Source of the DNA: an uncultured Flavobacteriales bacterium | Lineage (GTDB): Bacteria; Bacteroidota; Bacteroidia; AKYH767-A; 2013-40CM-41-45 | Direction: 5' to 3' | Assembly: GCA_964356415.1 (NCBI GenBank) | Contig: CAYHHK010000001.1 | Span: 38,057-102,056, forward strand | DNA: 64,000 nt | Shown: positions 9,474 through 59,021 of the stretch, piece by piece | Numbering within the stretch: position 1 is the stretch's first letter | Layout: each line of letters starts with the position of its first letter | Made by a program: the position numbers and the translations under genes | Notes under the pieces: model-generated | Told to the model about the DNA's origin: nothing | What the model saw: only the letters and a program-made list of their open reading frames with translations | Databases searched by the model: none

Positions 9474-9505
9474 GCTGTATTAAATTTCATTGAATATCCA
9501 TTTTA

Positions 9506-31689: not shown

Positions 31690-31787
31690 TTTGAAGTATT
31701 TTTTAATTCTTATCGTTTAATTCTTATCGATTGATTTTATTTTCATGCTGTTACACAATGAATGATATTGACCTTTCGTTTTAGCAT

Positions 31788-32420: not shown

Positions 32421-32445
32421 CTATTGTAATATTGAAGTTGCCTGC

Positions 32446-32895: not shown

Positions 32896-32898
32896 GGA

Positions 32899-33627: not shown

Positions 33628-33652
33628 AGCTCAATTTTTATTTTGGTTTAAT

Positions 33653-34450: not shown

Positions 34451-34461
34451 ATTTATTATTT

Positions 34462-35184: not shown

Positions 35185-35204
35185 TATTTCAATTTTTAAA
35201 ATGA

Positions 35205-36755: not shown

Positions 36756-36794
36756 ATCGTATTGATTTAGTTTAGTTTTTAGTTTGAACGATTT

Positions 36795-40412: not shown

Positions 40413-40433
40413 ATATTAGATGTTTTTAAGGGT

Positions 40434-41300: not shown

Positions 41301-41361
41301 TTGATTACTATTTTGTAATTAATGGTTGAGGATAATTATTCTAGGCCGAACTAATTGATTT

Positions 41362-45162: not shown

Positions 45163-45769
45163 GGGTAAAATATTTCCTGTATTCCTCTTTTGTATTGATG
45201 TTTGCGTGTATGTTGCTGTCGTTTGTTTTCAACTGCTCAAAAGGATATTTCTCTAGGATAGCCCTTAGATTGGTTTCCGGCTGTGTTGCTTTTTTGATGT
45301 CCTGTAAAATTTCAGCTGACACCAATACAGGGTGCCCATGTTTGTTATTGTTTTCCGGAACTACATATTTCCCTACCAAAAGTCTCTTCATCATTTGTTC
45401 AAGGAGTGCAGTGGTTGTAAAAGGATTGTCAATGTTCTGAATAAAGGCACTGTTTTTTGTATTGATTGCATTTACTCCAAGTTTTACACTAAAAAATCTG
45501 CCGTCTTCAGGATGTTCATTGATTATAGTGGTAATATTCGTTTTATTCTTAAGCGGTTTGATCAATTCTTTTGCCTTCTTCGCGGTTTCAGTATTTAAGA
45601 CGATCACAATGTCCGGAATATTTGCATCAATATAAACCATTGTCAGTCTTTCAAGAAACGAAATGGATGAATTAAATTTCAGGAAACATTTTGGACTACC
45701 GAAGCGTTCCGATTTGCCTGCTGAGAGTATGATTGCAGAAACAAAGCCGCTGCCGGGTTGTTTATTCAT
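45146..45769 (-). CDS. mocA: MobA-like NTP transferase, MocA-type molybdenum cofactor cytidylyltransferase candidate
   Basis: AIILSAGKSERFGSPK nucleotidyltransferase motif. Adjacency to xdhC suggests MCD-cofactor synthesis for the XDH-family enzyme. Confidence 0.65.
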   Translation of the reverse strand: MNKQPGSGFVSAIILSAGKSERFGSPKCFLKFNSSISFLERLTMVYIDANIPDIVIVLNTETAKKAKELIKPLKNKTNITTIINEHPEDGRFFSVKLGVNAINTKNSAFIQNIDNPFTTTALLEQMMKRLLVGKYVVPENNNKHGHPVLVSAEILQDIKKATQPETNLRAILEKYPFEQLKTNDSNIHANINTKEEYRKYFTHDPIH

Positions 45770-47772: not shown

Positions 47773-48557
47773 TTTGAAAGTGCTTTATTATTTTCCCAGA
47801 CGGGTTTTCTTTTCTCTAAAAATGAATTGATGCCTTCATTCGCGTCATGGGTTTCCATCAGTTGCCTTACATACATGCTTTCAAGTTGCTGAAGAAAATT
47901 GGTTAAGACATGATTGAATTTAGCCCGTGATGCTCTTACTGCAAAGCGGAGTGAGGTGGCGCTTTTTGGAATAATTTGATCTGCAATCCATTTTTCAATA
48001 CCTGTATCCATTGTGGCCTTGTCATCAAACAGTTCATTCACCAATCCTATTTGTCTGGCTTCTTCTGCATGAAAGGTCCTTCCGGTAAGAAGTATTTCTT
48101 CTGCCCTTGCCAAGCCGATTTTTTCAGGAAGGATAACTGAAGCAGGAGGGGGGAAGACCCCAAGTACAATTTCGGGCTGCCCGAATCTGGCTGTTTTGTC
48201 GGCAAAAATAAAATTGCACATAATCGCAAGTTCCATTCCGCCACCAAGACATTGTCCTGAAACTTTTGCCAGAGTTGGGATGGACAGATCTCTTAGCGTA
48301 TAAAACAATGCATGAAAATTCTGAAGCATGGTTGAAGCAAATTCTTTTTTATGTTCTTCTACACTTGCCCCAAAGGAAAAATGCTTCCCTGCGCCTTCAA
48401 GAATAATCAGCTTAACCTGGGAATTAGCACGAAATGTATTTAATACAGACTGCAATTCTTCAATCATCACGTGGTCAAGTACATTTCCTTTGCCGTCATC
48501 AAGAATCACATTGATAACAGTATCATTATGGCTGTAAATAATTTTAACTTTTTCCAT
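47769..48557 (-). CDS. enoyl-CoA hydratase/isomerase (crotonase) family; dienoyl-CoA hydratase (Dch)-like candidate
   Basis: 262 aa with crotonase oxyanion-hole segments (LEGAGKHFSFGAS; CLGGGMELA). Function inferred from size and context with had/oah-like genes. Confidence 0.8.
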   Translation of the reverse strand: MEKVKIIYSHNDTVINVILDDGKGNVLDHVMIEELQSVLNTFRANSQVKLIILEGAGKHFSFGASVEEHKKEFASTMLQNFHALFYTLRDLSIPTLAKVSGQCLGGGMELAIMCNFIFADKTARFGQPEIVLGVFPPPASVILPEKIGLARAEEILLTGRTFHAEEARQIGLVNELFDDKATMDTGIEKWIADQIIPKSATSLRFAVRASRAKFNHVLTNFLQQLESMYVRQLMETHDANEGINSFLEKRKPVWENNKALSK

Positions 48558-48559
48558 TG

Positions 48560-49660
48560 TCAGGTATTAACTTTTTGGTATTGTGGCGAGATCGTTCTGT
48601 GCATTTCATCATTCCATTCATTTCCCTGCGCCAGGAGTTGACGCAGTTTGATGAAATCTACTTCACGGTCCTCTTTTGGTCCGTCATTAAAGGCTTTGAA
48701 TCCAGCCTTCGCTTCTGTCATCATATTTAGTGCAAGCCACTCGCGGCTGCCTTCCTTGTTTTTATCCCAGTGTTCGAGTTTGAATTTGCGAACTTCACTG
48801 ATGGTTTTTGTCATGCAGTTGGGGAATGTGTAAAGTAGTTTGGTGATCAGGTTATTTACCGCCTTGTCCAGCATCGATAAATCTGTTTCGGCAGTTGCTA
48901 AAATCTCTTTTGCTTTTTTCAATTCATCGCCTGATTTGGAAGTTCCGAAAATGACACGTCCGAATTCATTAGTGATTTTATCTGTTACCACCATTGGATT
49001 TGGAGTAAACTGACCATTCACTTTTAGCACAGGAACTATTTCTGTAATAACCCCAAAATAATATGCCTGATGTGCGGTCCACGGTTCACAAAGCGTGAGA
49101 GACATCATTGCCCGCTCAACGCCTACAAAAAGCGGAAGGAAATCAGTGGCGCCTCCAATGGGTGCACTCCCGTGTTTTGGACCTGCCTGGCCGAATCTTG
49201 CCATGTCACTGGCTATGCTGAAGTCGCAGGCCATTCCTATTTCCTGGCCACCGCCAATACGCATTCCGTTAACACGATTGATTACAGGTTTTTCGCATTT
49301 CAATATTGCACTTACCATGTCATTGAACAACCGCATATATTGTGAGTACTCCTGCGGGTTTCCGGCATAATACTCGGCATACTCTTTTGTGTTTCCGCCT
49401 GTACAAAATGCTTTGTCACCAACTGCAGTAAAAACAACTGCAACTACACTCCTGTCGTTTGATGCTTCTCCAAATGCCAGAATGATTTCTTTTACTGCCG
49501 AAGTCGTGTATGAATTATATTGTTTTGGATTATTAAGATAAATCCAGGCATTGTATAACCCATCTATGGGATTGCCATTTTTGTCAAGGCAGTTCTTTTT
49601 CTCAAAAATGATTTCTTTATATACTGCTGTGACGATGTTGTGATTTTTTAGGTTGCTCAT
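48560..49660 (-). CDS. crotonase-superfamily protein with a C-terminal extension; 6-oxocyclohex-1-ene-1-carbonyl-CoA hydrolase (Oah/BamA)-like candidate
   Basis: ~366 aa from the ATG at 49660 (MSNLKNH...). Crotonase core (AFCTGGNTKEY; GMRIGGGQEIGMACDF) plus a ~100 aa C-terminal extension. The longer track ORF would overlap the upstream T9SS gene. Confidence 0.7.
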   Translation of the reverse strand: MSNLKNHNIVTAVYKEIIFEKKNCLDKNGNPIDGLYNAWIYLNNPKQYNSYTTSAVKEIILAFGEASNDRSVVAVVFTAVGDKAFCTGGNTKEYAEYYAGNPQEYSQYMRLFNDMVSAILKCEKPVINRVNGMRIGGGQEIGMACDFSIASDMARFGQAGPKHGSAPIGGATDFLPLFVGVERAMMSLTLCEPWTAHQAYYFGVITEIVPVLKVNGQFTPNPMVVTDKITNEFGRVIFGTSKSGDELKKAKEILATAETDLSMLDKAVNNLITKLLYTFPNCMTKTISEVRKFKLEHWDKNKEGSREWLALNMMTEAKAGFKAFNDGPKEDREVDFIKLRQLLAQGNEWNDEMHRTISPQYQKVNT

Positions 49661-49664
49661 TGTT

Positions 49665-50852
49665 CTAGTTTGTAATTTGTAATTTAAATAAATATTGTTT
49701 TTGGCCTCTCGTTGCTGAAAGTAAATACAACCCCGGTGATAATTCAGAAACATCAATTTGCTTGGAATTCTTTGCTGTCACAACAGGGATTCCTCCAAAT
49801 GAATAAATTTTAATATCTGAGATGCAGTTGTCGGGAGAGTTGATAAATACACAGTTTGTGGATGGGTTCGGATAAATACTTAATTGTTCATTCTGATTTT
49901 CATTTATTGCATCAAGTATGCACCAGGTGATTCCGGAAGATATTGTTCCAAAATTGAAGTCAATGAATGGTGTGGATATTGGCGGGGTTGAGTCGCAAAA
50001 ATCAAAATCTCCCTTCATCCAGCCCCAATTGACCGAGCTGTCGGACACTTGAAAGCTTCCTGTTGCTGTTCCTTTAACGGTATCTGCATTATACCAGCTG
50101 TCGTTCACAATTATTCTTCCGTTGTTATCAAGCGTTGCATTGTGTTGAACTGAATCAGCATTCAGCAGGCTTTTATATAGGATGAAATACCCTGAAGAAA
50201 GGTTCTTAAATATTTCAGTATTCCAGGAACTGTGCAAACAAGTAATGCTATCTGAATTGGTAAAGGTTCCAAGATTTGTAAGATCGGTAAATGTGAGGGT
50301 ATTATTATTTGTGTATTCCCCGGTATTTGTAAATTGATTGTATGTGCAAATCCCATTATTTGTAAAAGTTCCGCCGGTAGTGATACTGTCAATATCCAGG
50401 AAACTGCCGTCGTTGATTATAGCGCCTGTGCTGTATAGACTGTCAATGTTTTGAATGGTTCCTGTATTGGTGAAGTTCACATAGCTCATCAGCGAACGGG
50501 CTGTAAGTGTCCCACTATTCGAAAATGAGCCTGCCTGTACAAACAAGTAGCGTATATCAAGTGTACCATGATTTGTCAGTGTTCCTCCATTTACCAGTAT
50601 GTCCCGTGAAGAATTGTTTTCTATTAGTGATCCTCCTGCATTAATGGTGATTCCTCCGGAAGGGAGATACCAGCCGGTGTCAAGTGCGACAGCGTGGTTG
50701 ATGGTAACTGTAAAGCCGGGCAATGGTATGCAGGTACAACTCCATGTCAACGGGTTCATCCAATTTCCATTTTGAACAGAAGTTGCATTCTGCGAAACAC
50801 CGGAAAAACAAATGGAGAATAAAGCCAGAAGGGTGCTAAGAAATTTGCGCAT
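49665..50852 (-). CDS. secreted beta-helix-like repeat protein with a T9SS C-terminal sorting domain, embedded in the catabolic operon
   Basis: Signal peptide MRKFLSTLLALFSICFSGVSQ, many FTNxGT-type repeats, and C-terminal SIYPNPSTNCVFIN...GLYLLS...LFKLQI. Confidence 0.75.
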   Translation of the reverse strand: MRKFLSTLLALFSICFSGVSQNATSVQNGNWMNPLTWSCTCIPLPGFTVTINHAVALDTGWYLPSGGITINAGGSLIENNSSRDILVNGGTLTNHGTLDIRYLFVQAGSFSNSGTLTARSLMSYVNFTNTGTIQNIDSLYSTGAIINDGSFLDIDSITTGGTFTNNGICTYNQFTNTGEYTNNNTLTFTDLTNLGTFTNSDSITCLHSSWNTEIFKNLSSGYFILYKSLLNADSVQHNATLDNNGRIIVNDSWYNADTVKGTATGSFQVSDSSVNWGWMKGDFDFCDSTPPISTPFIDFNFGTISSGITWCILDAINENQNEQLSIYPNPSTNCVFINSPDNCISDIKIYSFGGIPVVTAKNSKQIDVSELSPGLYLLSATRGQKQYLFKLQITN

Positions 50853-50858: not shown

Positions 50859-51968
50859 TTATTTGAAATCGGGAATAAGAACTGATCGTTTTGAATATTT
50901 ATGCTCAAGAGTATTTCTAAATACTTCATTTATTTTCGACATAGGAAAAGTTTGCACAAACTGTGATATGTTCAGTTTGCCATTGGATATCAGGTCTAAA
51001 ACCTCGGGATATAGTTCTGCCCTGCATCCCCATGTGCCGATGAGTTTGGCGTCATATGCCATCAGGTTGCTTAGCCGGACTTCTGTTTTATCCATTGTGA
51101 AGCCAACAATTGAAAGCGTTGAAGCGTACGTGATAAGGTTAAAAGCCAGATCCTGACCTGCTTTTGTTCCGCTGAATTCAAATATTTTCCATCTGAATTT
51201 TGGCGCATTGATTTCCTTAGCAAGCGCTTTTACTTTTTCTTTGATTGTTTTCTGATCAAGGCTTTTGATATTCAAAACCGCATCTATGCCATTTTCTTTT
51301 GCAGTGGTCAGCTTCGCATCATTGATATCCAGCGCAATTACTTTAGCTCCGAATATTTTTGCGATCAGTGCTCCATAAACTCCTACGCCTCCAACACCGA
51401 TAACAATGGCAAGATCACCCGGTTCCAGTTCTGATTTTTTAATGACCTGATAAGGTGTTGAAATTGCATCAGCAATAACCGCGAGATGTTCGAGTGGATA
51501 TTTATTCAAAACACTTTTTGGAACTTCACATAGAAATTTAGAGGGTACTATTATATGTGAGGAAAATCCTCCCTGGAAATCGTTTCCGGGCATTAATTGA
51601 TTTCTGCAAATATTGCTTCTCCCATTTTTACAGAACTCGCAATCACCACAAGGCAACACGGCAGGAATGATTACTGCTTTATCAAGCCATTTATTATCAC
51701 CGGTAATTACTGTCCCGCTGATCTCATGACCTAACGTCAGAGGAAGTGCATGCTTCGTCTGTACTCCTGCATGCCAAAAGCTGATGTCTGTATGACACAC
51801 ACCGCATCCTGCAATTTTCACAATGACCTCTCCGTCTTTTAATACCGGTAGTGGGTTTTCAATAAGTTGAAATTCCTTGTTGAGTTCAACCATTTGCCAT
51901 TGATGCATTTTTTCGGTTGAAGTAACTTTTGCAGAAGCAAGCTTGATTTTATCAAATGTTTCAGGCAT
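50859..51968 (-). CDS. zinc-dependent medium-chain alcohol dehydrogenase family; 6-hydroxycyclohex-1-ene-1-carbonyl-CoA dehydrogenase (Had/BamQ)-like candidate
   Basis: 369 aa with a catalytic Zn motif (GCGVCHTD), a structural Zn Cys4 (CGDCEFCKNGRSNIC) and a GxGxxG Rossmann motif (IGVGGVGVYG). Confidence 0.8.
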   Translation of the reverse strand: MPETFDKIKLASAKVTSTEKMHQWQMVELNKEFQLIENPLPVLKDGEVIVKIAGCGVCHTDISFWHAGVQTKHALPLTLGHEISGTVITGDNKWLDKAVIIPAVLPCGDCEFCKNGRSNICRNQLMPGNDFQGGFSSHIIVPSKFLCEVPKSVLNKYPLEHLAVIADAISTPYQVIKKSELEPGDLAIVIGVGGVGVYGALIAKIFGAKVIALDINDAKLTTAKENGIDAVLNIKSLDQKTIKEKVKALAKEINAPKFRWKIFEFSGTKAGQDLAFNLITYASTLSIVGFTMDKTEVRLSNLMAYDAKLIGTWGCRAELYPEVLDLISNGKLNISQFVQTFPMSKINEVFRNTLEHKYSKRSVLIPDFK

Positions 51969-51970: not shown

Positions 51971-53233
51971 CTATAGGTTTTTGTTTTCAAAAAGGATAGC
52001 TGTTCCCTGTCCGCCGCCAATGCATGCAGATGCGATCCCATATTTTACTTTTCTGCGTATCATTTCTTTAGAGATGGTGAGAGACAACCGCAATCCTGTG
52101 GCGGCAAGCGGATGCCCTATTGCAATGGCTCCTCCGTTTACATTCAGTTTGGTTCTGTCAATTCCCAGTTCCTTTTCGCAACCGATTACCTGCGCCGAGA
52201 ATGCTTCGTTAATTTCAAGCAGACCAATATCGGAGATATTCAATCCAGTCATTTCAAGCAAAAGTCTGATTGCCGGAACCGGGCCCAATCCCATGTATTT
52301 CGGATCGATGCCACAACTTGCGCCTCCGATTATTTTTGATATTGGTTTTAAATTCTTTTGTGAAACAGTTTGCAAATTTGCAATAACTGCAGCGGCTGCG
52401 CCATCAACAATTCCACTGCAATTTCCTGCCGTAAGAACTCCCACTTTGTCAAACACTGTAGGCAGTTTACCCAGCGCATCCAGCGTTGTGGCACGGATAT
52501 GTTCATCAATTGAAAAGGAGCTTGTTCCTTTTGGGAGAAAAGCTTTTCTTGATTTAAGGCCTTCAATATTAAACGTGGCGGACTGCAACGATGCGATTTC
52601 CTCAGAGAAGATTTTATTTGTTGTGGCATCAATTGCTCTTTGAAAAGAGGTCATTGCATATTCATCGCAGTCATTTCTTGAGATATCATATTTCTTTGCA
52701 ACATTTTCGGCTGTATATCCCATCGGATATCCGGCGGCAGTATCGTCCAGAGCTTCCCAAAGCATATCCTTAAATACAGGCCTGCCTAAGGGATATCCCA
52801 TTCTGTTTCCAAAACTCACAGTAGGGGAGAGTGACATATTTTCTGTGCCAACACAGAGAACTGTGTCTGCTTTTCCCAGAGTGATTTGTTCTGCACCTGT
52901 AATAATTGTTTCAAAGCCTGATCCGCAAATCCTTTGCACCATTAATGCCGGAACTTCAGCCGGGATTCCGCTAAAGAGAGATATGTGGCGTGGAAGAAAA
53001 TAGGAGTCTGTTGAACTTTGTCCGATATTGGCTGCAATCACCTGATCAATTTCATTAGGTTTCACTCCTGATTTTTGCAGCGTGGATATTGCGGCAAAAA
53101 TCCCTAAATCGGTAGGAGAGATTTGGGAAAGCGAACCACAGTATTTTCCAAAAGGTGTCCTTGTTCCGTCGACGAGATAAATGTCGTCGAATATTATTCC
53201 TATTCCTTTATTTATATGATGGTAGGCTTTCAC
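51971..53233 (-). CDS. acetyl-CoA C-acyltransferase (degradative thiolase)
   Basis: RTPFGKY, catalytic Cys (VQRICGSGFE), NVNGGAIAIGHPLAATG and C-terminal CIGGGQG. Apparent GTG start at 53233 overlaps the upstream stop (GTGA). Confidence 0.85.
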   Translation of the reverse strand: MKAYHHINKGIGIIFDDIYLVDGTRTPFGKYCGSLSQISPTDLGIFAAISTLQKSGVKPNEIDQVIAANIGQSSTDSYFLPRHISLFSGIPAEVPALMVQRICGSGFETIITGAEQITLGKADTVLCVGTENMSLSPTVSFGNRMGYPLGRPVFKDMLWEALDDTAAGYPMGYTAENVAKKYDISRNDCDEYAMTSFQRAIDATTNKIFSEEIASLQSATFNIEGLKSRKAFLPKGTSSFSIDEHIRATTLDALGKLPTVFDKVGVLTAGNCSGIVDGAAAAVIANLQTVSQKNLKPISKIIGGASCGIDPKYMGLGPVPAIRLLLEMTGLNISDIGLLEINEAFSAQVIGCEKELGIDRTKLNVNGGAIAIGHPLAATGLRLSLTISKEMIRRKVKYGIASACIGGGQGTAILFENKNL

Positions 53234-55131
53234 TGAATTTCAGTTTTATTTGAAACGGAAGTTTCCGTTTTTAGAAAATGCTGTTTGGCAATGAGCGCTG
53301 CTCCCAATGATGCCATGAATTGTGGATTTTCAACCGATTCAACTTCTTGCTTAAGTTTTAATCCAAGAATATCTCTCAGGTATGGATGGTAGGCGATCAC
53401 TCCTCCAATGAGATAAATGGGGATTCCGGACATGATGCGCAGTTTGGCAACCCGGTTAACAATGGAGAGATAGACGCCTTTTGAAATATCTTCAACACTC
53501 ATGCCTTCTATGAGCCATTTCATGATTTCTGTCTTGGCGAATACGGTACAAAAACTGTTCAGCTCAGTTTTATTGTTGCTGCGGGCAGCAAGAAGGCTCA
53601 TTTCACTGATGTTGAGGTCGGCCCGTTCTGCAATTTCAGTAATGAATGACCCTGTTCCTGCAGCACATTTGTCATTGAGAAAGAAATTCTCTACCTCACT
53701 GTTGATGCCGCAATGGATCACCTTGATGTCTTCTCCTCCTATGTCTATAATGTTCTTTGCACCGGGATAAGAAAAGGAGACCCCTTCTGCCGCACAATTA
53801 ATTTCTGTTTTTACAATATCTGCGTCAGGAAAATTTTTGCGTCCATAACCGGTGGCGCAGCTGGCCTTAATATTAAACTCACTACGGATTGCACTCATTA
53901 CATGCCGCACTCCAATCTTATCGCGGTTGAGTGTTTTAAGTGCTAATTTGAATGCCACTTTCGAATTGCTGTCGAGGACGATAAATTTTGTGTAAGATGA
54001 GCCGAGGTCAACACCCAAAAAATATTCTCCTGAACCTGATTTCTCTCCTTTAATGACTAATCCATTCCTAGCTTTTTGGCCACCGGCACCGCTAAATGAC
54101 TTGCCGATCAATGATGGATCAAGTGATTTCATAAATGCACTGTTGCTGCGAGAGGTCATTGCCTTTACCATATTTGTAACAGCAAGATTGATGGGAGTGC
54201 GGATATAGTGCTTGCGGCCGTACTCAACTATTTTTCCATTCATGAAATCAATTTCAGTTTGCCTGTTGTTTATCAGGTCAACTGCAAGTGAAGGGAAATG
54301 GTCCCCTGCTTTTTTAAGGTAACGCAAACATTTGCGAATGAATTCATCTTCAAATATTATTTTTTCCGCTTTTGCTACTTCCAGTGCCTCTTCAATTACC
54401 AGTTCGATAAGTTCTACGGTATCGGGTATCTCCATTGCTTCCTTTATGGTGAGCTTACCGATTCCGCACAGTGCTGACAAGGAGGAATTCAGGATTGTTT
54501 TTTCCCAGATCTGTTTCAGTAATTCAAAGGATGAGATGAATTTGGTATTCAGATTGACTTTGTTCAGCAAGTCACTTATTTGCTGAGCAGCGCCGGCTTT
54601 TGAATCATCGAGGGAAGCGATGTAATTGGGCGGATTAAAAAATGTGACTTTTACAATATTCGGGGCATTCAGGTTGCCGGCAAAGTTGATCACAAGGCGT
54701 AATGTTTTACTTTCACCAATTCCTGAGGCAAGAATCTGCTCGACATCAATGCCGTTTTGTGCACTTACAAAAATGGTTTTATCAAAATTAAGATTCATCA
54801 CCTGTTCGACGAATGCTGATGTTTGATATCCTTTTATACTCGCTATAATGATGTCAGGGTTGAAATTTCGTAATTCGGTGAGGCTGCTGTAGATGTTATC
54901 AACGAAAATATGTTTCTGTATTGCTCCGTCCAGTTTTATTCCTTCTTTCCTGATTAAATTAATTTTAATTTTATCAAAATCGCATACCGCCACATTACAT
55001 CCGGCTTCTTTCAGATGAGCAGAAAGAATGAGCCCGACAGGTCCCAGGCCTACCACAGCTACTTTTTGTTCTGCCTTTTCATTTCCTGAAGGATCTGGAG
55101 TTTGTGATCTGATATTATTTTCTTCACTCAT
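53230..55131 (-). CDS. fusion protein: N-terminal 2-dehydropantoate-2-reductase (ApbA/PanE)-like NAD(P)H oxidoreductase domain :: C-terminal BadF/BadG/BcrA/BcrD (HgdC-type) ATPase/activase domain
   Basis: 633 aa. The N-terminus carries VAVVGLGPVGLILSAHL plus KPR-like motifs (~aa 20-330). The C-terminus has YFLGVDLGSSYTKFIVLD and CAAGTGSFITEIAE, the acetate/sugar-kinase-fold activase signatures. Confidence 0.75.
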   Translation of the reverse strand: MSEENNIRSQTPDPSGNEKAEQKVAVVGLGPVGLILSAHLKEAGCNVAVCDFDKIKINLIRKEGIKLDGAIQKHIFVDNIYSSLTELRNFNPDIIIASIKGYQTSAFVEQVMNLNFDKTIFVSAQNGIDVEQILASGIGESKTLRLVINFAGNLNAPNIVKVTFFNPPNYIASLDDSKAGAAQQISDLLNKVNLNTKFISSFELLKQIWEKTILNSSLSALCGIGKLTIKEAMEIPDTVELIELVIEEALEVAKAEKIIFEDEFIRKCLRYLKKAGDHFPSLAVDLINNRQTEIDFMNGKIVEYGRKHYIRTPINLAVTNMVKAMTSRSNSAFMKSLDPSLIGKSFSGAGGQKARNGLVIKGEKSGSGEYFLGVDLGSSYTKFIVLDSNSKVAFKLALKTLNRDKIGVRHVMSAIRSEFNIKASCATGYGRKNFPDADIVKTEINCAAEGVSFSYPGAKNIIDIGGEDIKVIHCGINSEVENFFLNDKCAAGTGSFITEIAERADLNISEMSLLAARSNNKTELNSFCTVFAKTEIMKWLIEGMSVEDISKGVYLSIVNRVAKLRIMSGIPIYLIGGVIAYHPYLRDILGLKLKQEVESVENPQFMASLGAALIAKQHFLKTETSVSNKTEIQ

Positions 55132-55148: not shown

Positions 55149-56399
55149 CTATTTAACATTGATCTGTGCTCGCTGCGCTTGTGGATTTCGATGCGAAGCG
55201 TGTTGAATTTGTTCAATAAAGGCTTCAATCTTTGTAATGCTTTGTCCTTCCGAGAAAAATCTCAGGTCACACAAGTCACCTTCAATTACAAGATACGGAA
55301 TCCCTGTTTCGTCTTTTAACCTTTTTGGCAAGCCGAACTTCGCATTTGAATTGTTGAAGCAGGTTTTTGAATCATGAAATATGATGCCATCACAAGAGAA
55401 TTCCTTCAGCCATTTTGCCAACATTTTCATTTTAGCTTTTTCACTCCTGTTGATGAAAATATTTGTATAGGCAAGCGCCGATGATTTAAATGGATCTTTT
55501 TCATCAAACTCATCAAATATCCAGCTGTTGCAATACGTAGATGCAACTACACCGGTGTTGTTCTGAATGAATAAATCAGAAAGCATTCTGTTCTTTCCCC
55601 AGATGGGCATACCATCCCAGAAGATGCGTGATTGTTCTTTTTCAACAACTCCGGTTTTCTTCAAAATATTTTCCTGTAGCTCTTTTAAAAGTGTCTGGTA
55701 ATATTGTTTTGCTGTTTCTGTACCCCGCAACACCACAATGGGCCCCATATGTATGGTTGCATCAAAAAAACTGAGTGGTGCAGGTGATGCTTTAGACGTC
55801 CTTAAAACCTGTTGCCAAAGGAGGGTGGCCTCTTTGCTGAGCAATAAGGTTTCCCTGAAGGAATCAATGTCAAATTGTTTCCCACTGGCTTTTTCACATG
55901 CAGGAATAATATTTTTATGCTGCTGAACACCTGTGGTAATTATTTCCTCTGAAACATCATCCACGTATCTTGGCGGGGTTATACCTGTAATAGGGCAGTT
56001 AAATTCTTTGGCATAAAAGTTAAACCAATCCTGAACTTCCCTGCATTGATTGGTATTGTAAACTATCAGGTCGGGTTTAGGAACGCCTTTCATTCCATAG
56101 TGAGATTGTAAAGGCGTTTTGCCGCTGAGGTAAGAACCGATGTCACTCGTCGTGTATGAGCATATGTGGTTTGAGAAGCCAAGTTTACCCGCTTCAGGAA
56201 TGAAATCGGTAGCGGTACGTGTGGCACCAAGGAGTGCACCGTGATTTTCAGGAAAATATACATTGAACCCAAAAGATCTTAGCAGTTCGGCTGGCCCAAC
56301 GCTTGTACACCATGCGATTTTTCGTTCACCGGTTTCCAATGATCGAAAATATTCGCTCATCACTGCTTTTAATAACTGTGTTGATTTGATTTCGTACAT
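55149..56399 (-). CDS. 2-hydroxyacyl-CoA dehydratase / benzoyl-CoA reductase B/C family subunit (HgdB/BcrC-like), stand-alone
   Basis: HGD-D family features (conserved Cys and C-terminal ...CDLRFF...). The track start at 56471 is TTG. ATGs lie at 56441 and 56399; the latter abuts the ligase stop (TGAtATG) without overlap. Confidence 0.7.
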   Translation of the reverse strand: MYEIKSTQLLKAVMSEYFRSLETGERKIAWCTSVGPAELLRSFGFNVYFPENHGALLGATRTATDFIPEAGKLGFSNHICSYTTSDIGSYLSGKTPLQSHYGMKGVPKPDLIVYNTNQCREVQDWFNFYAKEFNCPITGITPPRYVDDVSEEIITTGVQQHKNIIPACEKASGKQFDIDSFRETLLLSKEATLLWQQVLRTSKASPAPLSFFDATIHMGPIVVLRGTETAKQYYQTLLKELQENILKKTGVVEKEQSRIFWDGMPIWGKNRMLSDLFIQNNTGVVASTYCNSWIFDEFDEKDPFKSSALAYTNIFINRSEKAKMKMLAKWLKEFSCDGIIFHDSKTCFNNSNAKFGLPKRLKDETGIPYLVIEGDLCDLRFFSEGQSITKIEAFIEQIQHASHRNPQAQRAQINVK

Positions 56400-56400: not shown

Positions 56401-58149
56401 TCAGGTTGCAAATATTCTTCCAACAGTATTTTGAAGTTCATCCAGACGGATGATATAAATTTCTTCTTCAACAGGGTTTTCGTCTCCGTATAAATTTTCC
56501 AGATGCGCTTTGTATGCGCTCACCACATTTCGCGGAGCTACTTTCATGGATGGAGTCAATGTTCCTTTCTCCAGAGAAAGCTCATCATCGATAATCATAG
56601 CAGCTCTTATTTGTGCAAACTTTTGTCCGATGCCACAATTTGCATCATGTAAGCAACCGTGTAAGCATTTGCTGAGTTCATTCAGGTCGCGGGGACAGAA
56701 GCAACCTTCCTCAGGAGAAATGTTGTAGTCAGGATGATTTAAAAGTTTTTTATTTGGGAATAATATGGCAACAGGATAGTCTTGTCCGCTGCCTACTACC
56801 ATGGCGAATGAGATGTAGTGGCATTTCATCTCGATGAGTTTTTCAAGGTCTGACGGAACAACTTTTTCTCCGTTTGACAATTTAAAGATGCGGTCTTTGC
56901 GGGTGATAAGTTTCAGACCATTTTCTGTAATTTCTCCAATATCACCGGTGCAAAACCAGCCATCATCAGTAAATATTCCTGAATTCGCTTCGTCATTTTT
57001 ATAATACCCTTTCATTACGTTGGGACCTTTCACCTGAATTTCTCCGTCATCTGCGAGTCTGATGCTTACTCCGGGCAAAGGACTTCCTACAATACCATGA
57101 TGGCGTTTCTTATTTGGATTTGTGAGCGTACAGCATGGGGAAGTCTCAGTGAGACCCCATCCTTCTATGACTGGTACATGTCTTTTTTCAAATTCGTCGG
57201 AGAGATTTTTAGGAAGCGAAGCCGCTGCAGTGAAAATGAATTTCAATTGGGGATGAAAAAAGAGTTCTTCTGCTTCCTGATCATTTCTTGTAAGATCAAT
57301 AAGTGACTGGTAAACTTTTGGAACGCTGAAAAAGACTGTTGGCTGAATAATTTTCCAGTTTTCCATGAGCACTTTAGGATCTTTTCCATAGCCGGATTCA
57401 AGAGAGATGGTAGCGCCATTGTAAAGTGCCGTGAATAATTCAAAAATACCTCCGAAACTGTGATGCCACGGGAGATAGGAAAGGAAGCGATCAGTGGATG
57501 TTATTTTCAAGACCTTGGATAGCCCTGCTTGTTGTGATAAAATATTTTCATGTGTAAGTTGAACACATTTGGGAATACCCATCGTTCCTGATGTATACAT
57601 GTTCAGACAAATTTCATCAGGTGAAGCATTAGGATCAATTGAAAAACTTGTATCAGAATTAGTTTTTAGCAACTCATCAAAATGGTGCTGATTGTCAAAA
57701 TATTTTTTTTCAATGTTGTCAAAAACAAAAAGATGCCTGACATGAATGTTATTACTGAGTCTGCCTAATTGCAGTTCTCCGGCTACGCTAAGGAATTTTG
57801 CATCAGAATGATTGATGAGTAGTTCTGCCGTTTCCTGATGAAAATAGGCGAAGATGGGAACACTGATTCCACCTGAAACCATCACAGCAAGTTCAAGTTC
57901 AAGCATTTCAAGGCGATTCGGAGAATAAATTACCATCTTATCCCCGGCGATAAAGCCGAATCGCTTGAGGTTAAAAGCAATCTTTAAAATGTCATTGTAG
58001 AAATTGTGCCAGGTGATGCCTTCGAAAATTCCGTTTCTCTTCTCTTGAAAAACAATATTATCCCGAAACGCCCTTACATTGTGATGCAATAACATAGAAA
58101 TGTTAGGAATCATTTTATCCGGCTTAAATTCAGATTCAAGAGTTTTCAT
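56401..58149 (-). CDS. AMP-forming acyl-CoA synthetase/ligase
   Basis: 582 aa with the AMP-binding motif YTSGTMGIPKCV and C-terminal ligase motifs. ATG at 58149. Confidence 0.85.
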   Translation of the reverse strand: MKTLESEFKPDKMIPNISMLLHHNVRAFRDNIVFQEKRNGIFEGITWHNFYNDILKIAFNLKRFGFIAGDKMVIYSPNRLEMLELELAVMVSGGISVPIFAYFHQETAELLINHSDAKFLSVAGELQLGRLSNNIHVRHLFVFDNIEKKYFDNQHHFDELLKTNSDTSFSIDPNASPDEICLNMYTSGTMGIPKCVQLTHENILSQQAGLSKVLKITSTDRFLSYLPWHHSFGGIFELFTALYNGATISLESGYGKDPKVLMENWKIIQPTVFFSVPKVYQSLIDLTRNDQEAEELFFHPQLKFIFTAAASLPKNLSDEFEKRHVPVIEGWGLTETSPCCTLTNPNKKRHHGIVGSPLPGVSIRLADDGEIQVKGPNVMKGYYKNDEANSGIFTDDGWFCTGDIGEITENGLKLITRKDRIFKLSNGEKVVPSDLEKLIEMKCHYISFAMVVGSGQDYPVAILFPNKKLLNHPDYNISPEEGCFCPRDLNELSKCLHGCLHDANCGIGQKFAQIRAAMIIDDELSLEKGTLTPSMKVAPRNVVSAYKAHLENLYGDENPVEEEIYIIRLDELQNTVGRIFAT

Positions 58150-58160: not shown

Positions 58161-59021
58161 TTAAACAGCCAGTGCCTGTTTTTCCAATAACTTTTTATGG
58201 CGATAGCCTCCCCACAAGGCTGCTCCAAGGGCGCCGGCATAAATGGCATCGGGATGCGTTTTTATTTCAAATTTTTTTCCTGTTTCTATTAATTGCTCTT
58301 CAATTGCCTGAATCATTCCTGTGTTTAGTGCCATGCCACCTGTAAGAAAAATAGGGGATGCTGCCTTTAATGAACTCATAAGTTTGATAATTCGGGAGGC
58401 GATGGAAAGATGAATTCCTTTGATGATGTCCGGTGTAGAAATCCCCCTTGATACCATGTTGATTACATCCGTTTCTGCCAATACAGCACATATCCCTGAG
58501 GAAATTTCGGGTTGGTTTGCCTTCATTGACACCTCTCCCACTTCCTCAATGGACAATCCTAAATAGCGCGAAATATTTTCAAGAAACTGGCCTGAACCGG
58601 AAGCGCATTGTCCTGTCATTTTGTAATCTTCCACACGCGCATTCTCACTGATGCGGATTGCCCGCACGTATAAAGCACCAAGATCAACAACGGTTCTTGC
58701 TTCAGGAAAAAAATAATTGGCTCCTCTCGCATGGGTAGTCATTCCATAAAAGTGGCCCCGCTTTTTTTTAACTAAATCGCCTTCTCCTGTGGAGGCAAGG
58801 TATGCAATGTCTTCATATTGAAGATTGTGTTTTGTAAGCATTGCCTGCACCATCTCATCAGCGACTTGTGTAGGGTTGCGTTTCCTTATTTTTTCTGTGT
58901 GCTTGTCATTGATGATGGGATGGTCAGAATAGTCCATTAGTACTAACTTTATGAAGTTGCTTCCGACGTCTATTCCCATTGTGAAATAGGATTTTGACAT
59001 ATTTGAATTATTTTTTATCAT
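58161..59021 (-). CDS. BadF/BadG/BcrA/BcrD-family ATPase, short form (BcrD/BadG-like subunit)
   Basis: 286 aa with the MGIDVGSNFIKLVL ATPase phosphate-1 motif and CASGSGQFLE. It is the last gene of the four-gene reductase cluster. Confidence 0.8.
   Translation of the reverse strand: MIKNNSNMSKSYFTMGIDVGSNFIKLVLMDYSDHPIINDKHTEKIRKRNPTQVADEMVQAMLTKHNLQYEDIAYLASTGEGDLVKKKRGHFYGMTTHARGANYFFPEARTVVDLGALYVRAIRISENARVEDYKMTGQCASGSGQFLENISRYLGLSIEEVGEVSMKANQPEISSGICAVLAETDVINMVSRGISTPDIIKGIHLSIASRIIKLMSSLKAASPIFLTGGMALNTGMIQAIEEQLIETGKKFEIKTHPDAIYAGALGAALWGGYRHKKLLEKQALAV

What the first reader, a model, noticed from the sequence alone, without database searches (positions are those of the whole stretch)
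53230..55131. Unusual fusion of a ketopantoate-reductase-like NAD(P)H oxidoreductase domain to an HgdC/BcrAD-type activase ATPase
A single 633-aa ORF joins an ApbA/PanE-like 2-oxoacid reductase fold (VAVVGLGPVGL...) to a complete radical-enzyme activase domain (DLGSSYTKF ... CAAGTGSF). Two readings are possible. The KPR domain may make the (R)-2-hydroxyacid substrate for a dehydratase, giving a fused pathway step. Alternatively it may be a new NAD(P)H-linked way to feed electrons to an activase, which normally depends on ferredoxin or flavodoxin. I do not know of this architecture being described.
Basis: seen in the sequence. Interest (0 to 1): 0.75.

Follow-up and report, generated by a model that had tools for sequence, protein, structure and literature searches.

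The report
Dehydrogenase fused to radical-enzyme activator ATPase
A real and widely conserved gene fuses an NADH-type 2-oxoacid reductase to the ATP-driven electron injector of an unusual five-cysteine iron-sulfur enzyme, all inside an anaerobic benzoyl-CoA operon; no paper found describes this three-part module, and its reaction is still unknown.

Summary
Window 53230..55131 (-) is one 633-aa ORF: a KPR/ApbA domain (aa 22-327), a disordered non-conserved linker, and a complete HadI/HgdC-type activase (aa 370-621).

It is not an assembly artefact. More than 120 full-length homologues exist in Bacteroidota, Ignavibacteria, Calditrichaeota and Marinimicrobia. Split versions exist, and a Myxococcota MAG carries an alternative KPR::HGD-D fusion.

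The KPR catalytic residues are invariant. The pantoate and NADPH determinants are replaced, and the nearest solved relatives are the NADH-dependent D-mandelate/D-2-hydroxyacid dehydrogenases.

The fusion always follows a single HadB/BcrB-like protein. That protein carries five invariant Cys, matching 5 of the 6 double-cubane [8Fe-9S] ligand positions. A CoA ligase lies upstream. The whole unit sits in the operon BcrCBAD-ligase-HGD-D-fusion-thiolase-Had-Oah-Dch, with 4-hydroxybenzoyl-CoA-reductase-like genes nearby.

Best reading (about 0.4): a 2-hydroxyacyl-CoA-dehydratase-like side-chain module, in which the KPR domain makes the (R)-2-hydroxy acid and so feeds (4-hydroxy)benzoyl-CoA.

Main rival (about 0.3): the five-Cys protein is an ATP-dependent aryl-CoA reductase.

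NADH-to-activase electron feeding is unlikely.

Novelty: a new variant of a known kind.

The parts
53230..55131 (-). Fusion ORF, 633 aa: KPR-like dehydrogenase, linker, HadI-type activase
54151..55068 (-). N-terminal KPR/ApbA-family domain (aa 22-327). GxGxxG motif at G28/G30/G33. Catalytic K211, N126, E293, S281, N215 and D285 are invariant. D51 replaces the NADPH-binding arginine region, which points to NADH.
54025..54150 (-). Linker (aa 328-369). Not conserved; aa 344-359 have pLDDT below 50.
53269..54024 (-). C-terminal activase ('archerase') domain (aa 370-621). Motifs: DLGSSYTK; IDIGGED (E467 where HgdC/HadI have Q); cluster cysteines C489 (NDKCAAGTG) and C528 (SFCTVFAKTE).
55149..56399 (-). 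Partner gene: single HadB/BcrB-like HGD-D protein, 416 aa from the conserved ATG at 56399. Five invariant Cys (C31, C80, C119, C290, C347) and E51.
56401..58149 (-). AMP-forming acyl-CoA ligase (FadD-like, AMP-binding_C_3). It is replaced by an ADP-forming acyl-CoA synthetase in other lineages.
51971..53233 (-). Thiolase. Its GTG start overlaps the fusion's stop codon.
62705..63868 (-). BcrC (benzoyl-CoA reductase subunit C, Thauera type)
   Evidence: TIGR02263 455.8 bits, cut-off 421
61348..62649 (-). BcrB
   Evidence: TIGR02260 692.3 bits, cut-off 486.55
59914..61323 (-). BcrA-like ATPase subunit
   Evidence: TIGR02259 439.3 bits, below cut-off 578
58161..59021 (-). BcrD
   Evidence: TIGR02261 317 bits, cut-off 312.85
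50859..51968 (-). [quoted passage not shown]
   Evidence: TIGR03201 453.5 bits, cut-off 338.65
48560..49756 (-). Oah, 6-oxocyclohex-1-ene-1-carbonyl-CoA hydrolase. The true start is probably internal, near 49660.
   Evidence: TIGR03200 588.3 bits, cut-off 464.45
47769..48557 (-). Dch-like dienoyl-CoA hydratase
   Evidence: TIGR03189 227.7 bits, below cut-off 292.5
45766..47772 (-). FadB-like 3-hydroxyacyl-CoA dehydrogenase plus enoyl-CoA hydratase
43584..45769 (-). SDR, XdhC and MocA/MobA-like genes. These accompany the operon in most loci.
8523..12298 (-). 4-hydroxybenzoyl-CoA-reductase-like genes: a fused gamma/alpha subunit (930 aa) and a beta subunit (316 aa)
   Evidence: TIGR03194 827.7 bits, best hit but below cut-off 994.55; TIGR03195 200 bits

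Best explanation
The ORF encodes a bifunctional protein that works with the gene directly upstream of it.

Shown by sequence:
- The C-terminal domain is a complete HadI/HgdC-type ATPase. Such proteins are homodimers that share one [4Fe-4S] cluster and use ATP hydrolysis to push a low-potential electron into a partner enzyme.
- The N-terminal domain is a catalytically intact, NADH-type member of the ketopantoate-reductase family. It lacks the pantoate-specific residues and lies closest to D-mandelate/D-2-hydroxyacid dehydrogenases.
- The two domains are joined by a flexible tether.

Inferred from gene context:
- The activase's target is the adjacent single HadB/BcrB-like iron-sulfur protein.
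- KPR, that protein and the activase form one functional unit. They are found fused in different combinations, or split into separate genes.

Inferred mechanism:
1. A 2-oxo acid is reduced with NADH to the (R)-2-hydroxy acid by the KPR domain. The most likely substrates are arylpyruvates from phenylalanine or tyrosine transamination.
2. The adjacent ligase makes the CoA thioester. The order of steps 1 and 2 is open.
3. The HadB-like enzyme, primed by the activase domain, dehydrates it by ketyl-radical chemistry to the enoyl-CoA (cinnamoyl- or 4-coumaroyl-CoA).
4. Hydratase, dehydrogenase and the translationally coupled thiolase shorten this to (4-hydroxy)benzoyl-CoA.
5. The Hcr-like reductase, BcrCBAD, Dch, Had and Oah of the same island degrade that product.
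For: Domain completeness and residues:
- Both domains are complete and score well.
- The E. coli PanE residues K176, N98, E256, S244, N180, D248 and K72 map to invariant K211, N126, E293, S281, N215, D285 and K100.
- N184, N194 and N241 are replaced by S, I/M and H. R31 is replaced by V/I, and D51 is nearly invariant.
- The closest solved relatives are 2EW2, 8WL1 and 3WFI. They share the G-x-H-[YF]-P-S motif.
- Published work describes this branch as NADH-dependent D-2-hydroxyacid dehydrogenases (PMC4230899; bioRxiv 2024.01.05.573888).
- The activase is closer to HadI (146 bits) and HgdC (134 bits) than to the operon's own BcrA/BcrD. It keeps both cluster Cys.
- The AlphaFold2 model shows two folded domains, a disordered linker and pTM 0.53.

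The three-part unit:
- HGD-D followed by the fusion is found in every locus with enough sequence.
- Split KPR and activase genes occur in L027 and L028.
- A KPR::HGD-D fusion followed by an activase occurs in a Myxococcota MAG.
- A CoA ligase is always adjacent, and AMP-forming and ADP-forming types substitute for each other.

The partner resembles HadB:
- It is HadB-like (163 bits against 3O3M_A; NF052455 212.7 bits) and keeps the three cluster Cys and the Glu of HadB/BzdO.
- Its W-C-T-S-V-G-P...F-P-E-N motif is nearly that of HadB.

Entry of amino-acid-derived substrates:
- A HisC-family aminotransferase heads the Marinimicrobia cluster.
- A HisC-like aminotransferase lies between two KPR genes in L061.
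- An aminotransferase lies next to the Ignavibacteriae operon.
- A Flavobacteriales MAG that expresses peptidases also expresses the anaerobic benzoyl-CoA pathway (PMC8099898).
- The chemical route phenylpyruvate to phenyllactyl-CoA to cinnamoyl-CoA to benzoyl-CoA has been proposed elsewhere, with the dehydratase unassigned (PMC13416013).

A pattern this reading explains: clusters without KPR instead carry a solute importer (SSF) next to the ligase, as would fit uptake of a ready-made 2-hydroxy acid.
Against: - All characterised 2-hydroxyacyl-CoA dehydratases are alpha/beta heterodimers (PMC7317905). Here no dedicated beta subunit exists in any of the roughly 110 loci examined.
- The partner has two extra invariant Cys at positions that bind the distal half of the [8Fe-9S] double cubane in BzdN/DCCP. 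That cluster is known only from reductases, not from dehydratases.
- The HGD-D/activase pair is widespread without KPR. In Aminicenantes it occupies the position where a benzoyl-CoA reductase would be expected.
- No substrate was tested. The aryl-lactate assignment rests on gene context alone.
- The order of ligase and reductase is unknown. A related KPR fused to a crotonase in Asgard archaea hints that this KPR subfamily may act on CoA esters.
Confidence: 0.42

Rival explanations
1. The five-Cys HGD-D protein plus the activase domain is an ATP-consuming reductase, like benzoyl-CoA reductase or DCCP. It would act on benzoyl-CoA or on a substituted or hydroxylated aryl-CoA made by the adjacent ligase. 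The KPR domain would then reduce, or oxidise, a keto/hydroxy group on its substrate or product with NAD(H).
For: - Five invariant Cys match 5 of the 6 [8Fe-9S] ligand positions of BzdN/DCCP.
- A single HGD-D gene paired with a single activase gene is the arrangement of the homodimeric DCCP/DCCP-R reductase system (PMC7317905).
- In Aminicenantes and other clusters, HGD-D-activase-ACD-SSF sits with Dch, Had, Oah, beta-oxidation genes and sometimes Hcr. No BcrCBAD lies within 10 kb, so this pair is the only candidate ring reductase in view.
- Metagenomic studies report 'class I bcr' genes in Aminicenantes MAGs; whether these are this gene pair was not checked (bioRxiv 400804).
- The unit is constantly linked with 4-hydroxybenzoyl-CoA-reductase-like genes.
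Against: - In the window's type of operon a canonical BcrCBAD is already present. A second reductase for benzoyl-CoA itself would be redundant.
- This model gives the KPR domain no defined role. That domain keeps the carboxylate-binding Ser and the motif of free 2-oxoacid reductases.
- The sixth double-cubane Cys is missing in all 81 sequences.
- NF040772 (double_cubane) scores only 64 bits against a cut-off of 350.
- Flanks of 10 kb cannot exclude a class II reductase elsewhere in the genome.
Confidence: 0.28
2. The KPR domain is a new NAD(P)H-linked input that reduces the activase [4Fe-4S] cluster, replacing ferredoxin or flavodoxin.
For: - No ferredoxin gene and no 2-oxoglutarate:ferredoxin oxidoreductase genes were detected in the operon.
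- The fusion always lies near enzymes that need low-potential electrons, namely BCR and Hcr-like reductase.
Against: - KPR-family enzymes transfer a hydride to a carbonyl. No flavin or metal site was detected in the ORF that could split the hydride into single electrons (established enzymology of the family).
- All residues for 2-oxoacid binding and catalysis are invariant.
- The linker is long, disordered and not conserved, so no fixed electron path is suggested.
- The domains also occur as separate genes, or with KPR fused to the HGD-D protein instead.
- Many HGD-D/activase pairs lack KPR altogether.
- Some related clusters carry a separate 850-aa NAD(P)H:ferredoxin-oxidoreductase-like protein.
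Confidence: 0.05
3. The N-terminal domain is a genuine ketopantoate reductase for pantothenate and CoA synthesis, as public annotation says. On this view it is fused only for co-expression with a CoA-consuming pathway and is not mechanistically linked to the activase.
For: - NCBI names the family '2-dehydropantoate 2-reductase'.
- TIGR00745 passes its subfamily cut-off.
Against: - All PanE equivalog models fall far below their cut-offs, for example NF005088 at 152 bits against 371.
- The pantoate-contacting Asn184, Asn194 and Asn241 and the NADPH-binding Arg31 are replaced.
- Repeated independent fusions of this KPR subfamily to HGD-D, activase or crotonase point to acyl-CoA metabolism.
Confidence: 0.04
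4. The ORF is an artefact in which two genes were joined by a sequencing or assembly error.
For: None found.
Against: - The identical protein occurs on three independent contigs, and all 120 listed homologues carry both domains.
- The operon position is conserved across phyla.
- Genuine split versions differ from the fusion. They have their own stop and start codons and a 57-nt spacer.
Confidence: 0.005

Closest known systems
(R)-2-hydroxyisocaproyl-CoA dehydratase system of Clostridioides difficile (LdhA, HadA, HadI, HadBC) and phenyllactate dehydratase of Clostridium sporogenes (FldH, FldA, FldI, FldBC)
   Same: - The same four functions are clustered: an NADH-dependent D-2-hydroxyacid dehydrogenase, CoA activation, an ATP-dependent activator with a bridging [4Fe-4S] cluster, and a HadB-type catalytic protein with three Cys and a Glu.
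- The activase domain's best PDB match is HadI (E 1.2e-41). The partner's best PDB match is HadB (E 8.7e-47).
   Different: - The dehydrogenase belongs to the KPR family, not the 2HADH family, and is fused to the activator.
- CoA activation is by a ligase (AMP- or ADP-forming) instead of a CoA transferase.
- There is no beta subunit.
- The catalytic protein has two additional invariant Cys.
- The module is embedded in a benzoyl-CoA degradation operon of nitrate-respiring Bacteroidota, not in a clostridial fermentation cluster.
Double-cubane cluster protein DCCP and its reductase DCCP-R (Carboxydothermus hydrogenoformans; PDB 6ENO, 7YYL)
   Same: - One HGD-D-family gene is paired with one activase gene.
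- The partner here has Cys at 5 of the 6 positions that bind the [8Fe-9S] cluster.
   Different: - The sixth Cys is absent, and so is the seventh Cys of the DCCP motif.
- NF040772 scores 64 bits against a cut-off of 350.
- Overall sequence is nearer to HadB/BcrB.
- No KPR or CoA ligase is mentioned for DCCP in the paper read.
Class I benzoyl-CoA reductases (BcrCBAD of Thauera; BzdNOPQ, PDB 8S02; MbdONQP, PDB 9GAI)
   Same: - Same enzyme superfamily and the same operon.
- The partner aligns with the catalytic subunits MbdO and BzdO (E 3e-33 and 3e-19). The activase domain aligns with MbdQ (E 2.3e-38).
   Different: - A canonical BcrCBAD is encoded separately upstream.
- The fusion's activase scores far below the BcrA, BcrD and BzdQ cut-offs.
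- The partner lacks the His131 and Trp46 equivalents of BzdO.
- No BzdN/BcrC-type partner is dedicated to it.
KPR-family D-mandelate / D-2-hydroxyacid dehydrogenases (Enterococcus; PDB 2EW2, 3WFI)
   Same: - Same fold and the same catalytic Lys/Asn/Glu.
- An acidic residue marks NADH preference.
- The G-x-H-[YF]-P-S motif is shared.
   Different: - Alignment scores are modest (phmmer E 2.3e-26 for 2EW2 and 2.5e-20 for 3WFI).
- The domain belongs to a distinct 'FFNPPNY' subfamily whose members are fused to an activase, an HGD-D protein or a crotonase.
- Its substrate is unknown.

Membership tests
Ketopantoate reductase PanE/ApbA (true 2-dehydropantoate 2-reductase) | Rossmann GxGxxG motif and catalytic Lys176, Asn98 and Glu256 (E. 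coli numbering) | tested here: met
   G28/G30/G33, K211, N126 and E293 are invariant. The E. coli sequence used was verified against 1YJQ.
Ketopantoate reductase PanE/ApbA (true 2-dehydropantoate 2-reductase) | Pantoate-contacting Asn184, Asn194 and Asn241, and NADPH 2'-phosphate-binding Arg31 | tested here: not met
   These positions are S219, I/M229, H278 and V/I49. D51 is nearly invariant.
Ketopantoate reductase PanE/ApbA (true 2-dehydropantoate 2-reductase) | Score above the NCBIfam equivalog cut-offs | tested here: not met
   The best scores among the PanE-named NCBIfam models with higher cut-offs are 152 bits against 371 (NF005088, listed as 'subfamily') and 112 against 252 (NF005091, equivalog). 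Only the broad subfamily model TIGR00745 passes, at 152.4 against 141.35.
KPR-related NADH-dependent D-2-hydroxyacid dehydrogenases (D-mandelate dehydrogenase type) | Closest solved relatives, shared G-x-H-[YF]-P-S motif, and an acidic residue after beta-2 for NADH | tested here: met
   2EW2 E 2.3e-26; 8WL1 and 3WFI E about 1e-20 to 1e-21; the motif is visible in the alignments; D51.
KPR-related NADH-dependent D-2-hydroxyacid dehydrogenases (D-mandelate dehydrogenase type) | NADH-dependent reduction of bulky 2-oxo acids to D-2-hydroxy acids | not testable with these tools
   Requires an enzyme assay.
Acyl-CoA dehydratase activase / archerase (HgdC, HadI; TIGR00241) | Full-length match above the curated cut-off | tested here: met
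   168.3 bits against 125.4, covering model positions 2-248 of 248. The Pfam model is covered 1-271 of 271.
Acyl-CoA dehydratase activase / archerase (HgdC, HadI; TIGR00241) | Two cysteines per monomer that ligate the inter-subunit [4Fe-4S] cluster, and the ASKHA ATP-binding motifs | tested here: met
   C489 and C528 are invariant and align with the NDKCAAGTG and S-x-CTVFAE motifs of 1HUX and 4EHT. D375, G377, S378, K382 and DIGGED are invariant, with E467 in place of Q.
Acyl-CoA dehydratase activase / archerase (HgdC, HadI; TIGR00241) | Homodimer with a bridging cluster, and ATP-dependent electron transfer to a partner | not testable with these tools
   Only a monomer model could be made.
Benzoyl-CoA reductase ATPase subunits BcrA/BcrD/BzdQ | Score above the equivalog cut-offs | tested here: not met
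   TIGR02259 104.8 against 578; TIGR02261 57.5 against 312.85; TIGR03192 87.9 against 380.2. Separate BcrA and BcrD genes lie upstream.
2-Hydroxyacyl-CoA dehydratase system (activator plus alpha/beta dehydratase) | Catalytic alpha subunit with three cluster Cys and the active-site Glu | tested here: met
   The neighbour at 55149-56399 has C80, C119, C347 and E51, aligned to HadB and to BzdO C95/C128/C380/E65.
2-Hydroxyacyl-CoA dehydratase system (activator plus alpha/beta dehydratase) | A dedicated beta subunit (HadC/HgdB/FldC type) | tested here: not met
   Only one HGD-D gene accompanies the activase in all loci. The only beta-type gene nearby is BcrC of the separate reductase, and it is absent from split and type-2 clusters.
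2-Hydroxyacyl-CoA dehydratase system (activator plus alpha/beta dehydratase) | Dehydration of (R)-2-hydroxyacyl-CoA with catalytic use of ATP | not testable with these tools
   Requires anaerobic biochemistry.
Double-cubane cluster protein system (DCCP/DCCP-R) | Six cluster-binding Cys of the 7-Cys motif | tested here: not met
   Five of six positions are Cys (the equivalents of BzdN C36, C73, C100, C263 and C327). The C293 position is F-I-(N/V)-R in 81 sequences.
Double-cubane cluster protein system (DCCP/DCCP-R) | NF040772 score above cut-off | tested here: not met
   64.3 bits against 350.

The most novel reading that the evidence does not exclude
The fusion's partner defines a third, undescribed branch of the BCR/HAD/DCCP radical-enzyme family. 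It would be a single-subunit, probably homodimeric, five-Cys protein. Its cluster would resemble a double cubane with one iron left without a cysteine ligand, forming the active site.

With its own activase, this would be a two-gene ATP-dependent aryl-CoA reductase. It may stand in for BcrCBAD in Aminicenantes and other uncultured sediment phyla. In the FCB lineages a KPR-type dehydrogenase has been recruited, fused either to the activase or to the iron-sulfur protein. This would couple an NADH-dependent keto/hydroxy step directly to the radical step, forming a three-part enzyme complex with no described counterpart.
Probability: 0.25. Interest if true: 0.85.

Novelty: new variant of a known kind. 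Interest (0 to 1): 0.62.

Why it matters
- If the module is a dehydratase, it would be the first single-subunit member of the 2-hydroxyacyl-CoA dehydratases. It would also define an anaerobic route from phenylalanine or tyrosine (or aryl-lactates) to benzoyl-CoA in abundant uncultured Bacteroidota, Ignavibacteria and marine Marinimicrobia. That route has so far only been hypothesised.
- If it is a reductase, it would be a minimal two-gene ATP-dependent ring or aryl-CoA reductase with a new iron-sulfur cluster variant. Such genes may be among those counted as 'class I bcr' in metagenomic surveys.
- Either way, thousands of public proteins named '2-dehydropantoate 2-reductase' or '2-hydroxyacyl-CoA dehydratase' are mis-described or under-described.
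- The natural fusions (KPR::activase and KPR::HGD-D) offer a convenient handle for expression and structural work.

Tried and rejected
1. Assembly or frameshift artefact: rejected.
2. Loss of the KPR catalytic residues: rejected.
3. L012 (Ignavibacteriaceae MAG) as a natural stand-alone KPR. The operon breaks right after the KPR into restriction-modification-like genes on the other strand. I treat it as a truncation or rearrangement, not as evidence. Genuine split forms were later found in L027 and L028.
4. Literature searches for the fusion, or for KPR together with BCR or HAD, found nothing relevant.
5. A Foldseek search of the model against AFDB50, meant to find cultured hosts, failed because the library is not installed.
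6. I wanted the distances between the five Cys in a model, but no coordinates are exposed to scripts. I used hhalign and motif mapping to BzdN/DCCP instead.
7. BzdO His131 as a marker to separate reductases from dehydratases is not informative. BcrB and MbdO also lack it.
8. The closest PDB relatives of the ligase (oxalate-, malonyl-, feruloyl- and OSB-CoA ligases) do not reveal its substrate.
9. The P0123 fusion (39% identity) sits without an HGD-D gene in view, next to NifU/NifS. It gives no functional clue.
10. The correlation of KPR with BcrCBAD in the same cluster (13 loci with both, 13 with neither, 3 exceptions) may reflect phylogeny rather than function. I did not use it to choose between models.

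Full report
**1. The observation**

Window 53230..55131 (minus strand) is one open reading frame of 633 aa with an ATG start.

- Pfam finds ApbA (aa 24-164), ApbA_C (aa 204-325) and a complete BcrAD_BadFG domain (aa 372-615, model positions 1-271 of 271), with E-values from 5e-17 to 8.7e-36.
- NCBIfam gives TIGR00241 'acyl-CoA dehydratase activase' at 168 bits (cut-off 125) and the broad TIGR00745 apbA_panE model at 152 bits (cut-off 141). All PanE, BcrA, BcrD and BzdQ equivalog models fall far below their cut-offs.
- The best solved relatives are the HadI activator 4EHT (E 1.2e-41), MbdQ, and HgdC 1HUX for the C-terminal half. For the N-terminal half they are the KPR-family proteins 2EW2, 8WL1 and 3WFI.

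**2. It is not an artefact**

- The identical protein is on three public contigs. All 120 listed homologues (57-81% identity, about 590-650 aa) carry both domains. They come from Bacteroidetes, Ignavibacteria, Calditrichaeota, Saprospiraceae, Cytophagales and Chitinophagaceae MAGs, where NCBI names them '2-dehydropantoate 2-reductase'.
- A second fusion cluster (48% identity, 569 aa) belongs to marine Marinimicrobia and is seen on about 100 contigs.
- Genuine split versions exist, with separate KPR (321-326 aa) and activase (254-267 aa) genes (L027 and L028).
- A Myxococcota MAG carries KPR fused to the HGD-D protein instead, followed by a separate activase (P0141, L030).
- An AlphaFold2 model built on 59 sequences shows two well-folded domains joined by a disordered linker (aa 344-359, pLDDT below 50; pTM 0.53). 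The linker is also the least conserved stretch of the family.

**3. The two domains in detail**

*KPR domain.* I aligned it with E. coli PanE; my recalled PanE sequence proved identical to 1YJQ.

| E. coli PanE residue | Role | In the fusion family |
|---|---|---|
| K176 | catalytic | K211, invariant |
| N98 | catalytic | N126, invariant |
| E256 | catalytic | E293, invariant |
| S244, N180, D248, K72 | catalytic/binding | S281, N215, D285, K100, invariant |
| N184, N194, N241 | pantoate contacts | S, I/M, H |
| R31 | NADPH 2'-phosphate | V/I; D51 nearly invariant |

The domain shares the G-x-H-[YF]-P-S motif with the enterococcal relatives. Published work describes those relatives as NADH-dependent D-mandelate/D-2-hydroxyacid dehydrogenases, a branch separate from true ketopantoate reductases (PMC4230899). 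I conclude that the domain is a catalytically competent NADH-type 2-oxoacid reductase and not a PanE.

It belongs to a distinct KPR subfamily marked by QNGID, FFNPPNY and G-x-H-x-P-S. Members of this subfamily are found fused to an activase, to an HGD-D protein, or, in Asgard archaea, to a crotonase next to an ETF gene. This points to acyl-CoA metabolism.

*Activase domain.* It keeps both cluster cysteines (C489, C528) and the ATP-binding motifs. The family-specific motif is DIGGED, where HgdC and HadI have DIGGQD.

**4. Gene context in the window**

Reading along the minus strand, the order is:

1. BcrC, BcrB, BcrA
2. an inserted acyltransferase
3. BcrD
4. AMP-forming CoA ligase
5. a single HGD-D protein
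6. the fusion
7. thiolase, then Had
8. an inserted type-9-secretion-tail ORF
9. Oah, Dch, a FadB-like protein
10. MocA-like, XdhC and SDR genes

. BcrB, BcrC, BcrD, Had and Oah pass their NCBIfam equivalog cut-offs. The ligase, HGD-D, fusion and thiolase genes are separated by 1 nt, 17 nt and a 4-nt overlap respectively.

Further along, the window holds:
- 4-hydroxybenzoyl-CoA-reductase-like genes (TIGR03194 is the best hit at 828 bits, but below its cut-off);
- a TrpB-like PLP enzyme;
- hydantoinase A/B-type genes;
- molybdenum-cofactor synthesis genes;
- NarK, NarGHI and c-type cytochromes.

The host is therefore a nitrate-respiring member of the Bacteroidota with an anaerobic aromatic-degradation island.

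**5. Conservation of the context**

- The order BcrC-BcrB-BcrA-BcrD-ligase-HGD-D-fusion-thiolase-Had-Oah-Dch-FadB recurs in 11 GTDB species loci, down to 53% identity. It also recurs in Ignavibacteriae, with small changes in Marinimicrobia, and in many metagenome contigs.
- The ligase can be replaced by an ADP-forming acyl-CoA synthetase at the same position.
- Hcr-like, XdhC, MocA and SDR genes flank the operon in most long loci. In the Myxococcota locus they directly follow the KPR::HGD-D and activase genes.
- A HisC-family aminotransferase heads the Marinimicrobia cluster. A HisC-like aminotransferase lies between two KPR genes in L061. Another aminotransferase lies next to the Ignavibacteriae operon.

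**6. The partner protein is unusual**

The real start of the HGD-D gene is the conserved ATG at 56399, giving 416 aa.

- Overall it resembles the catalytic alpha-type subunits: HadB 163 bits, MbdO 119 bits, BzdO 73 bits. It keeps the three cluster Cys and the Glu of HadB and BzdO.
- Its W-C-T-S-V-G-P...F-P-E-N stretch is almost that of HadB.
- No beta-type subunit is dedicated to it in any locus.
- It has two further invariant cysteines. In 81 sequences C31, C80, C119 and C347 are invariant, and C290 is Cys in 80 of 81.
- By hhalign (probability 92.9%) and by motif, these five match BzdN C36, C73, C100, C263 and C327. That is five of the six ligands of the [8Fe-9S] double cubane and of the DCCP motif. 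HadB, BcrB and BzdO have only three.
- The sixth position is F-I-(N/V)-R.

The review read here describes three-Cys and seven-Cys groups and mentions no five-Cys group. The family is large: at least 541 relatives were found in the metagenome scan, and 7844 proteins score E <= 1e-60 to an Aminicenantes member.

**7. Two types of cluster**

I labelled genes in 80 metagenome loci by phmmer against the window's proteins.

- *Type 1*, as in the window, has BcrCBAD, a ligase, HGD-D, KPR (fused or split) with the activase, thiolase, and Had/Oah/Dch.
- *Type 2* is HGD-D-activase-ADP-forming synthetase-SSF transporter, without KPR and without BcrCBAD. It often sits next to Dch, Had, Oah, beta-oxidation and Hcr-like genes (L083, L102, L115 from Aminicenantes, and others).

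Among 29 loci with at least 6.5 kb of upstream sequence:

| | BcrC/B in cluster | no BcrC/B in cluster |
|---|---|---|
| KPR adjacent | 13 | 2 |
| no KPR adjacent | 1 | 13 |

. This correlation may simply reflect phylogeny.

**8. Mechanism**

*What the sequence shows.* The C-terminal domain is an intact ATP-dependent electron-transfer activator. The N-terminal domain is an intact NADH-type 2-oxoacid reductase. The tether between them is flexible.

*What follows from context.* The activator's client is the adjacent five-Cys protein. KPR, that protein and the activase form one unit, because they are fused in different pairings in different lineages.

*Best-supported reaction (confidence about 0.4).* This is a 2-hydroxyacyl-CoA-dehydratase-like module. 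All four functions of the clostridial had and fld clusters are present: dehydrogenase, CoA activation, activator and HadB-type enzyme. The downstream hydratase/dehydrogenase and the coupled thiolase would convert the enoyl-CoA to an aroyl-CoA. The Hcr-like reductase and BcrCBAD would then take over.

Several points fit arylpyruvates from tyrosine or phenylalanine as the entry:
- the aminotransferase neighbours;
- the peptide-scavenging lifestyle reported for a related Flavobacteriales MAG that expresses the benzoyl-CoA pathway (PMC8099898);
- the presence of an importer, rather than KPR, in type-2 clusters.

The same chemical route has been postulated elsewhere, with the dehydratase unassigned (PMC13416013).

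*Main rival (about 0.3).* The five-Cys protein is an ATP-consuming reductase. The arguments for it are the double-cubane-like Cys pattern, the DCCP-like two-gene arrangement, and type-2 clusters that contain every step of benzoate degradation except a recognisable reductase. Metagenomic studies report 'class I bcr' genes in Aminicenantes MAGs; whether those are this gene pair was not checked. This model leaves the KPR domain unexplained. It also makes the window's operon redundant for benzoyl-CoA itself, although a substituted substrate would remove that objection.

- KPR enzymes transfer hydrides, and no flavin-binding or other one-electron-carrier family was detected in the ORF.
- The domains are loosely tethered.
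- They occur as separate genes.
- Most relatives of the pair have no KPR.

**9. Novelty and verdict**

The fusion is common in sequence databases but is annotated as a ketopantoate reductase. I found no paper that describes it, the three-part unit, or the five-Cys clade. All parts belong to known superfamilies, so I rate it a new variant of a known kind.

Limits of this analysis:
- All functional statements beyond domain integrity are inferences from gene context.
- Flanks were at most 10 kb.
- Gene labels in the surveys are best phmmer hits to the window's proteins.
- No multimer model or model coordinates were available.

Interest is moderate to high. A specialist in radical iron-sulfur enzymes or anaerobic aromatic degradation would want to test it, and the experiments that decide between the models are straightforward.

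Noticed in passing
window 55149-56399 (-); L035-L114: The fusion's partner has five invariant Cys (C31, C80, C119, C290, C347). These match 5 of the 6 [8Fe-9S] double-cubane ligand positions of BzdN/DCCP. HadB, BcrB and BzdO have only three. The sixth position is F-I-(N/V)-R in 81 sequences. This clade is not mentioned in the review read here.
   Followed up: partly
L083, L102, L115 (Aminicenantes), L075, L076, L112: These are 'type 2' clusters: HGD-D(5-Cys)-activase-ADP-forming acyl-CoA synthetase-SSF transporter, next to Dch, Had, Oah, beta-oxidation and sometimes Hcr-like genes. No BcrCBAD and no KPR lie within 10 kb. The pair sits where a benzoyl-CoA reductase would be expected.
   Followed up: partly
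window 59107-59910 (-) and 49665-50852 (-): Two genes interrupt the otherwise conserved operon in this window only. One is a PlsC-type acyltransferase between BcrA and BcrD. The other is an ORF with a type-9-secretion C-terminal sorting domain between Had and Oah. Similar Por_Secre_tail ORFs are inserted in the clusters of L008, L009 and L061.
   Followed up: no
window 7097-8464 (-); L032 1-839: A TrpB-like PLP enzyme (NF009057, 737 bits) lies beside the Hcr-like genes here. It also lies at the edge of the Marinimicrobia cluster, a distant lineage. Its role next to an aromatic-degradation island is unexplained.
   Followed up: no
window 3107-6956 (-); L028 6827-10583: Hydantoinase A/B-type genes, with best hits to caprolactamase and acetophenone carboxylase models (all below cut-off), occur in the window's island. 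Close orthologues directly follow the split HGD-D-KPR-activase unit in L028.
   Followed up: no
window 8523-12298 (-): The 4-hydroxybenzoyl-CoA-reductase-like enzyme has its gamma and alpha subunits fused into one 930-aa protein. The same fusion is seen in L027 and L011. It scores best against TIGR03194 but below that model's cut-off, so it may act on a different aryl-CoA.
   Followed up: partly
window 14113-20976 and 25451-41934: This part of the window holds molybdenum-cofactor biosynthesis genes, two NarK-type MFS transporters, respiratory nitrate reductase NarGHI and c-type cytochromes. The host looks like a nitrate-respiring member of the Bacteroidota.
   Followed up: no
L012 9974-10960: In an Ignavibacteriaceae MAG the KPR gene ends after 328 aa. 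The operon then breaks off into methyltransferase and restriction-like genes on the opposite strand. This is probably a truncation or rearrangement.
   Followed up: partly
L031 1341-3200 (P0136); L030 10001-12187 (P0141): The same KPR subfamily is fused to a crotonase domain in Asgard archaea, next to an ETF alpha gene. In a Myxococcota MAG it is fused to the HGD-D protein, followed by an activase and by Hcr-like, XdhC and MocA genes.
   Followed up: partly
L026 1164-2993 (P0123): A divergent KPR::activase fusion (39% identity) stands alone near NifU and a cysteine desulfurase. No HGD-D gene is in view, so its client is unknown.
   Followed up: no
L061 5080-7632; L079 12183-14729: An 850-aa protein with 2Fe-2S, 4Fe-4S and pyridine-nucleotide-disulphide-oxidoreductase domains lies beside the activase genes in some clusters. 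It may be an NAD(P)H:ferredoxin oxidoreductase that supplies the low-potential electrons.
   Followed up: no
window 53731-53733 (aa 467 of the fusion): The phosphate-2 motif reads DIGGED in the FCB-group fusions and in the split activases of L027 and L028. HgdC, HadI, BcrA and the Myxococcota homologue have DIGGQD. The effect on ATP hydrolysis is unknown.
   Followed up: partly
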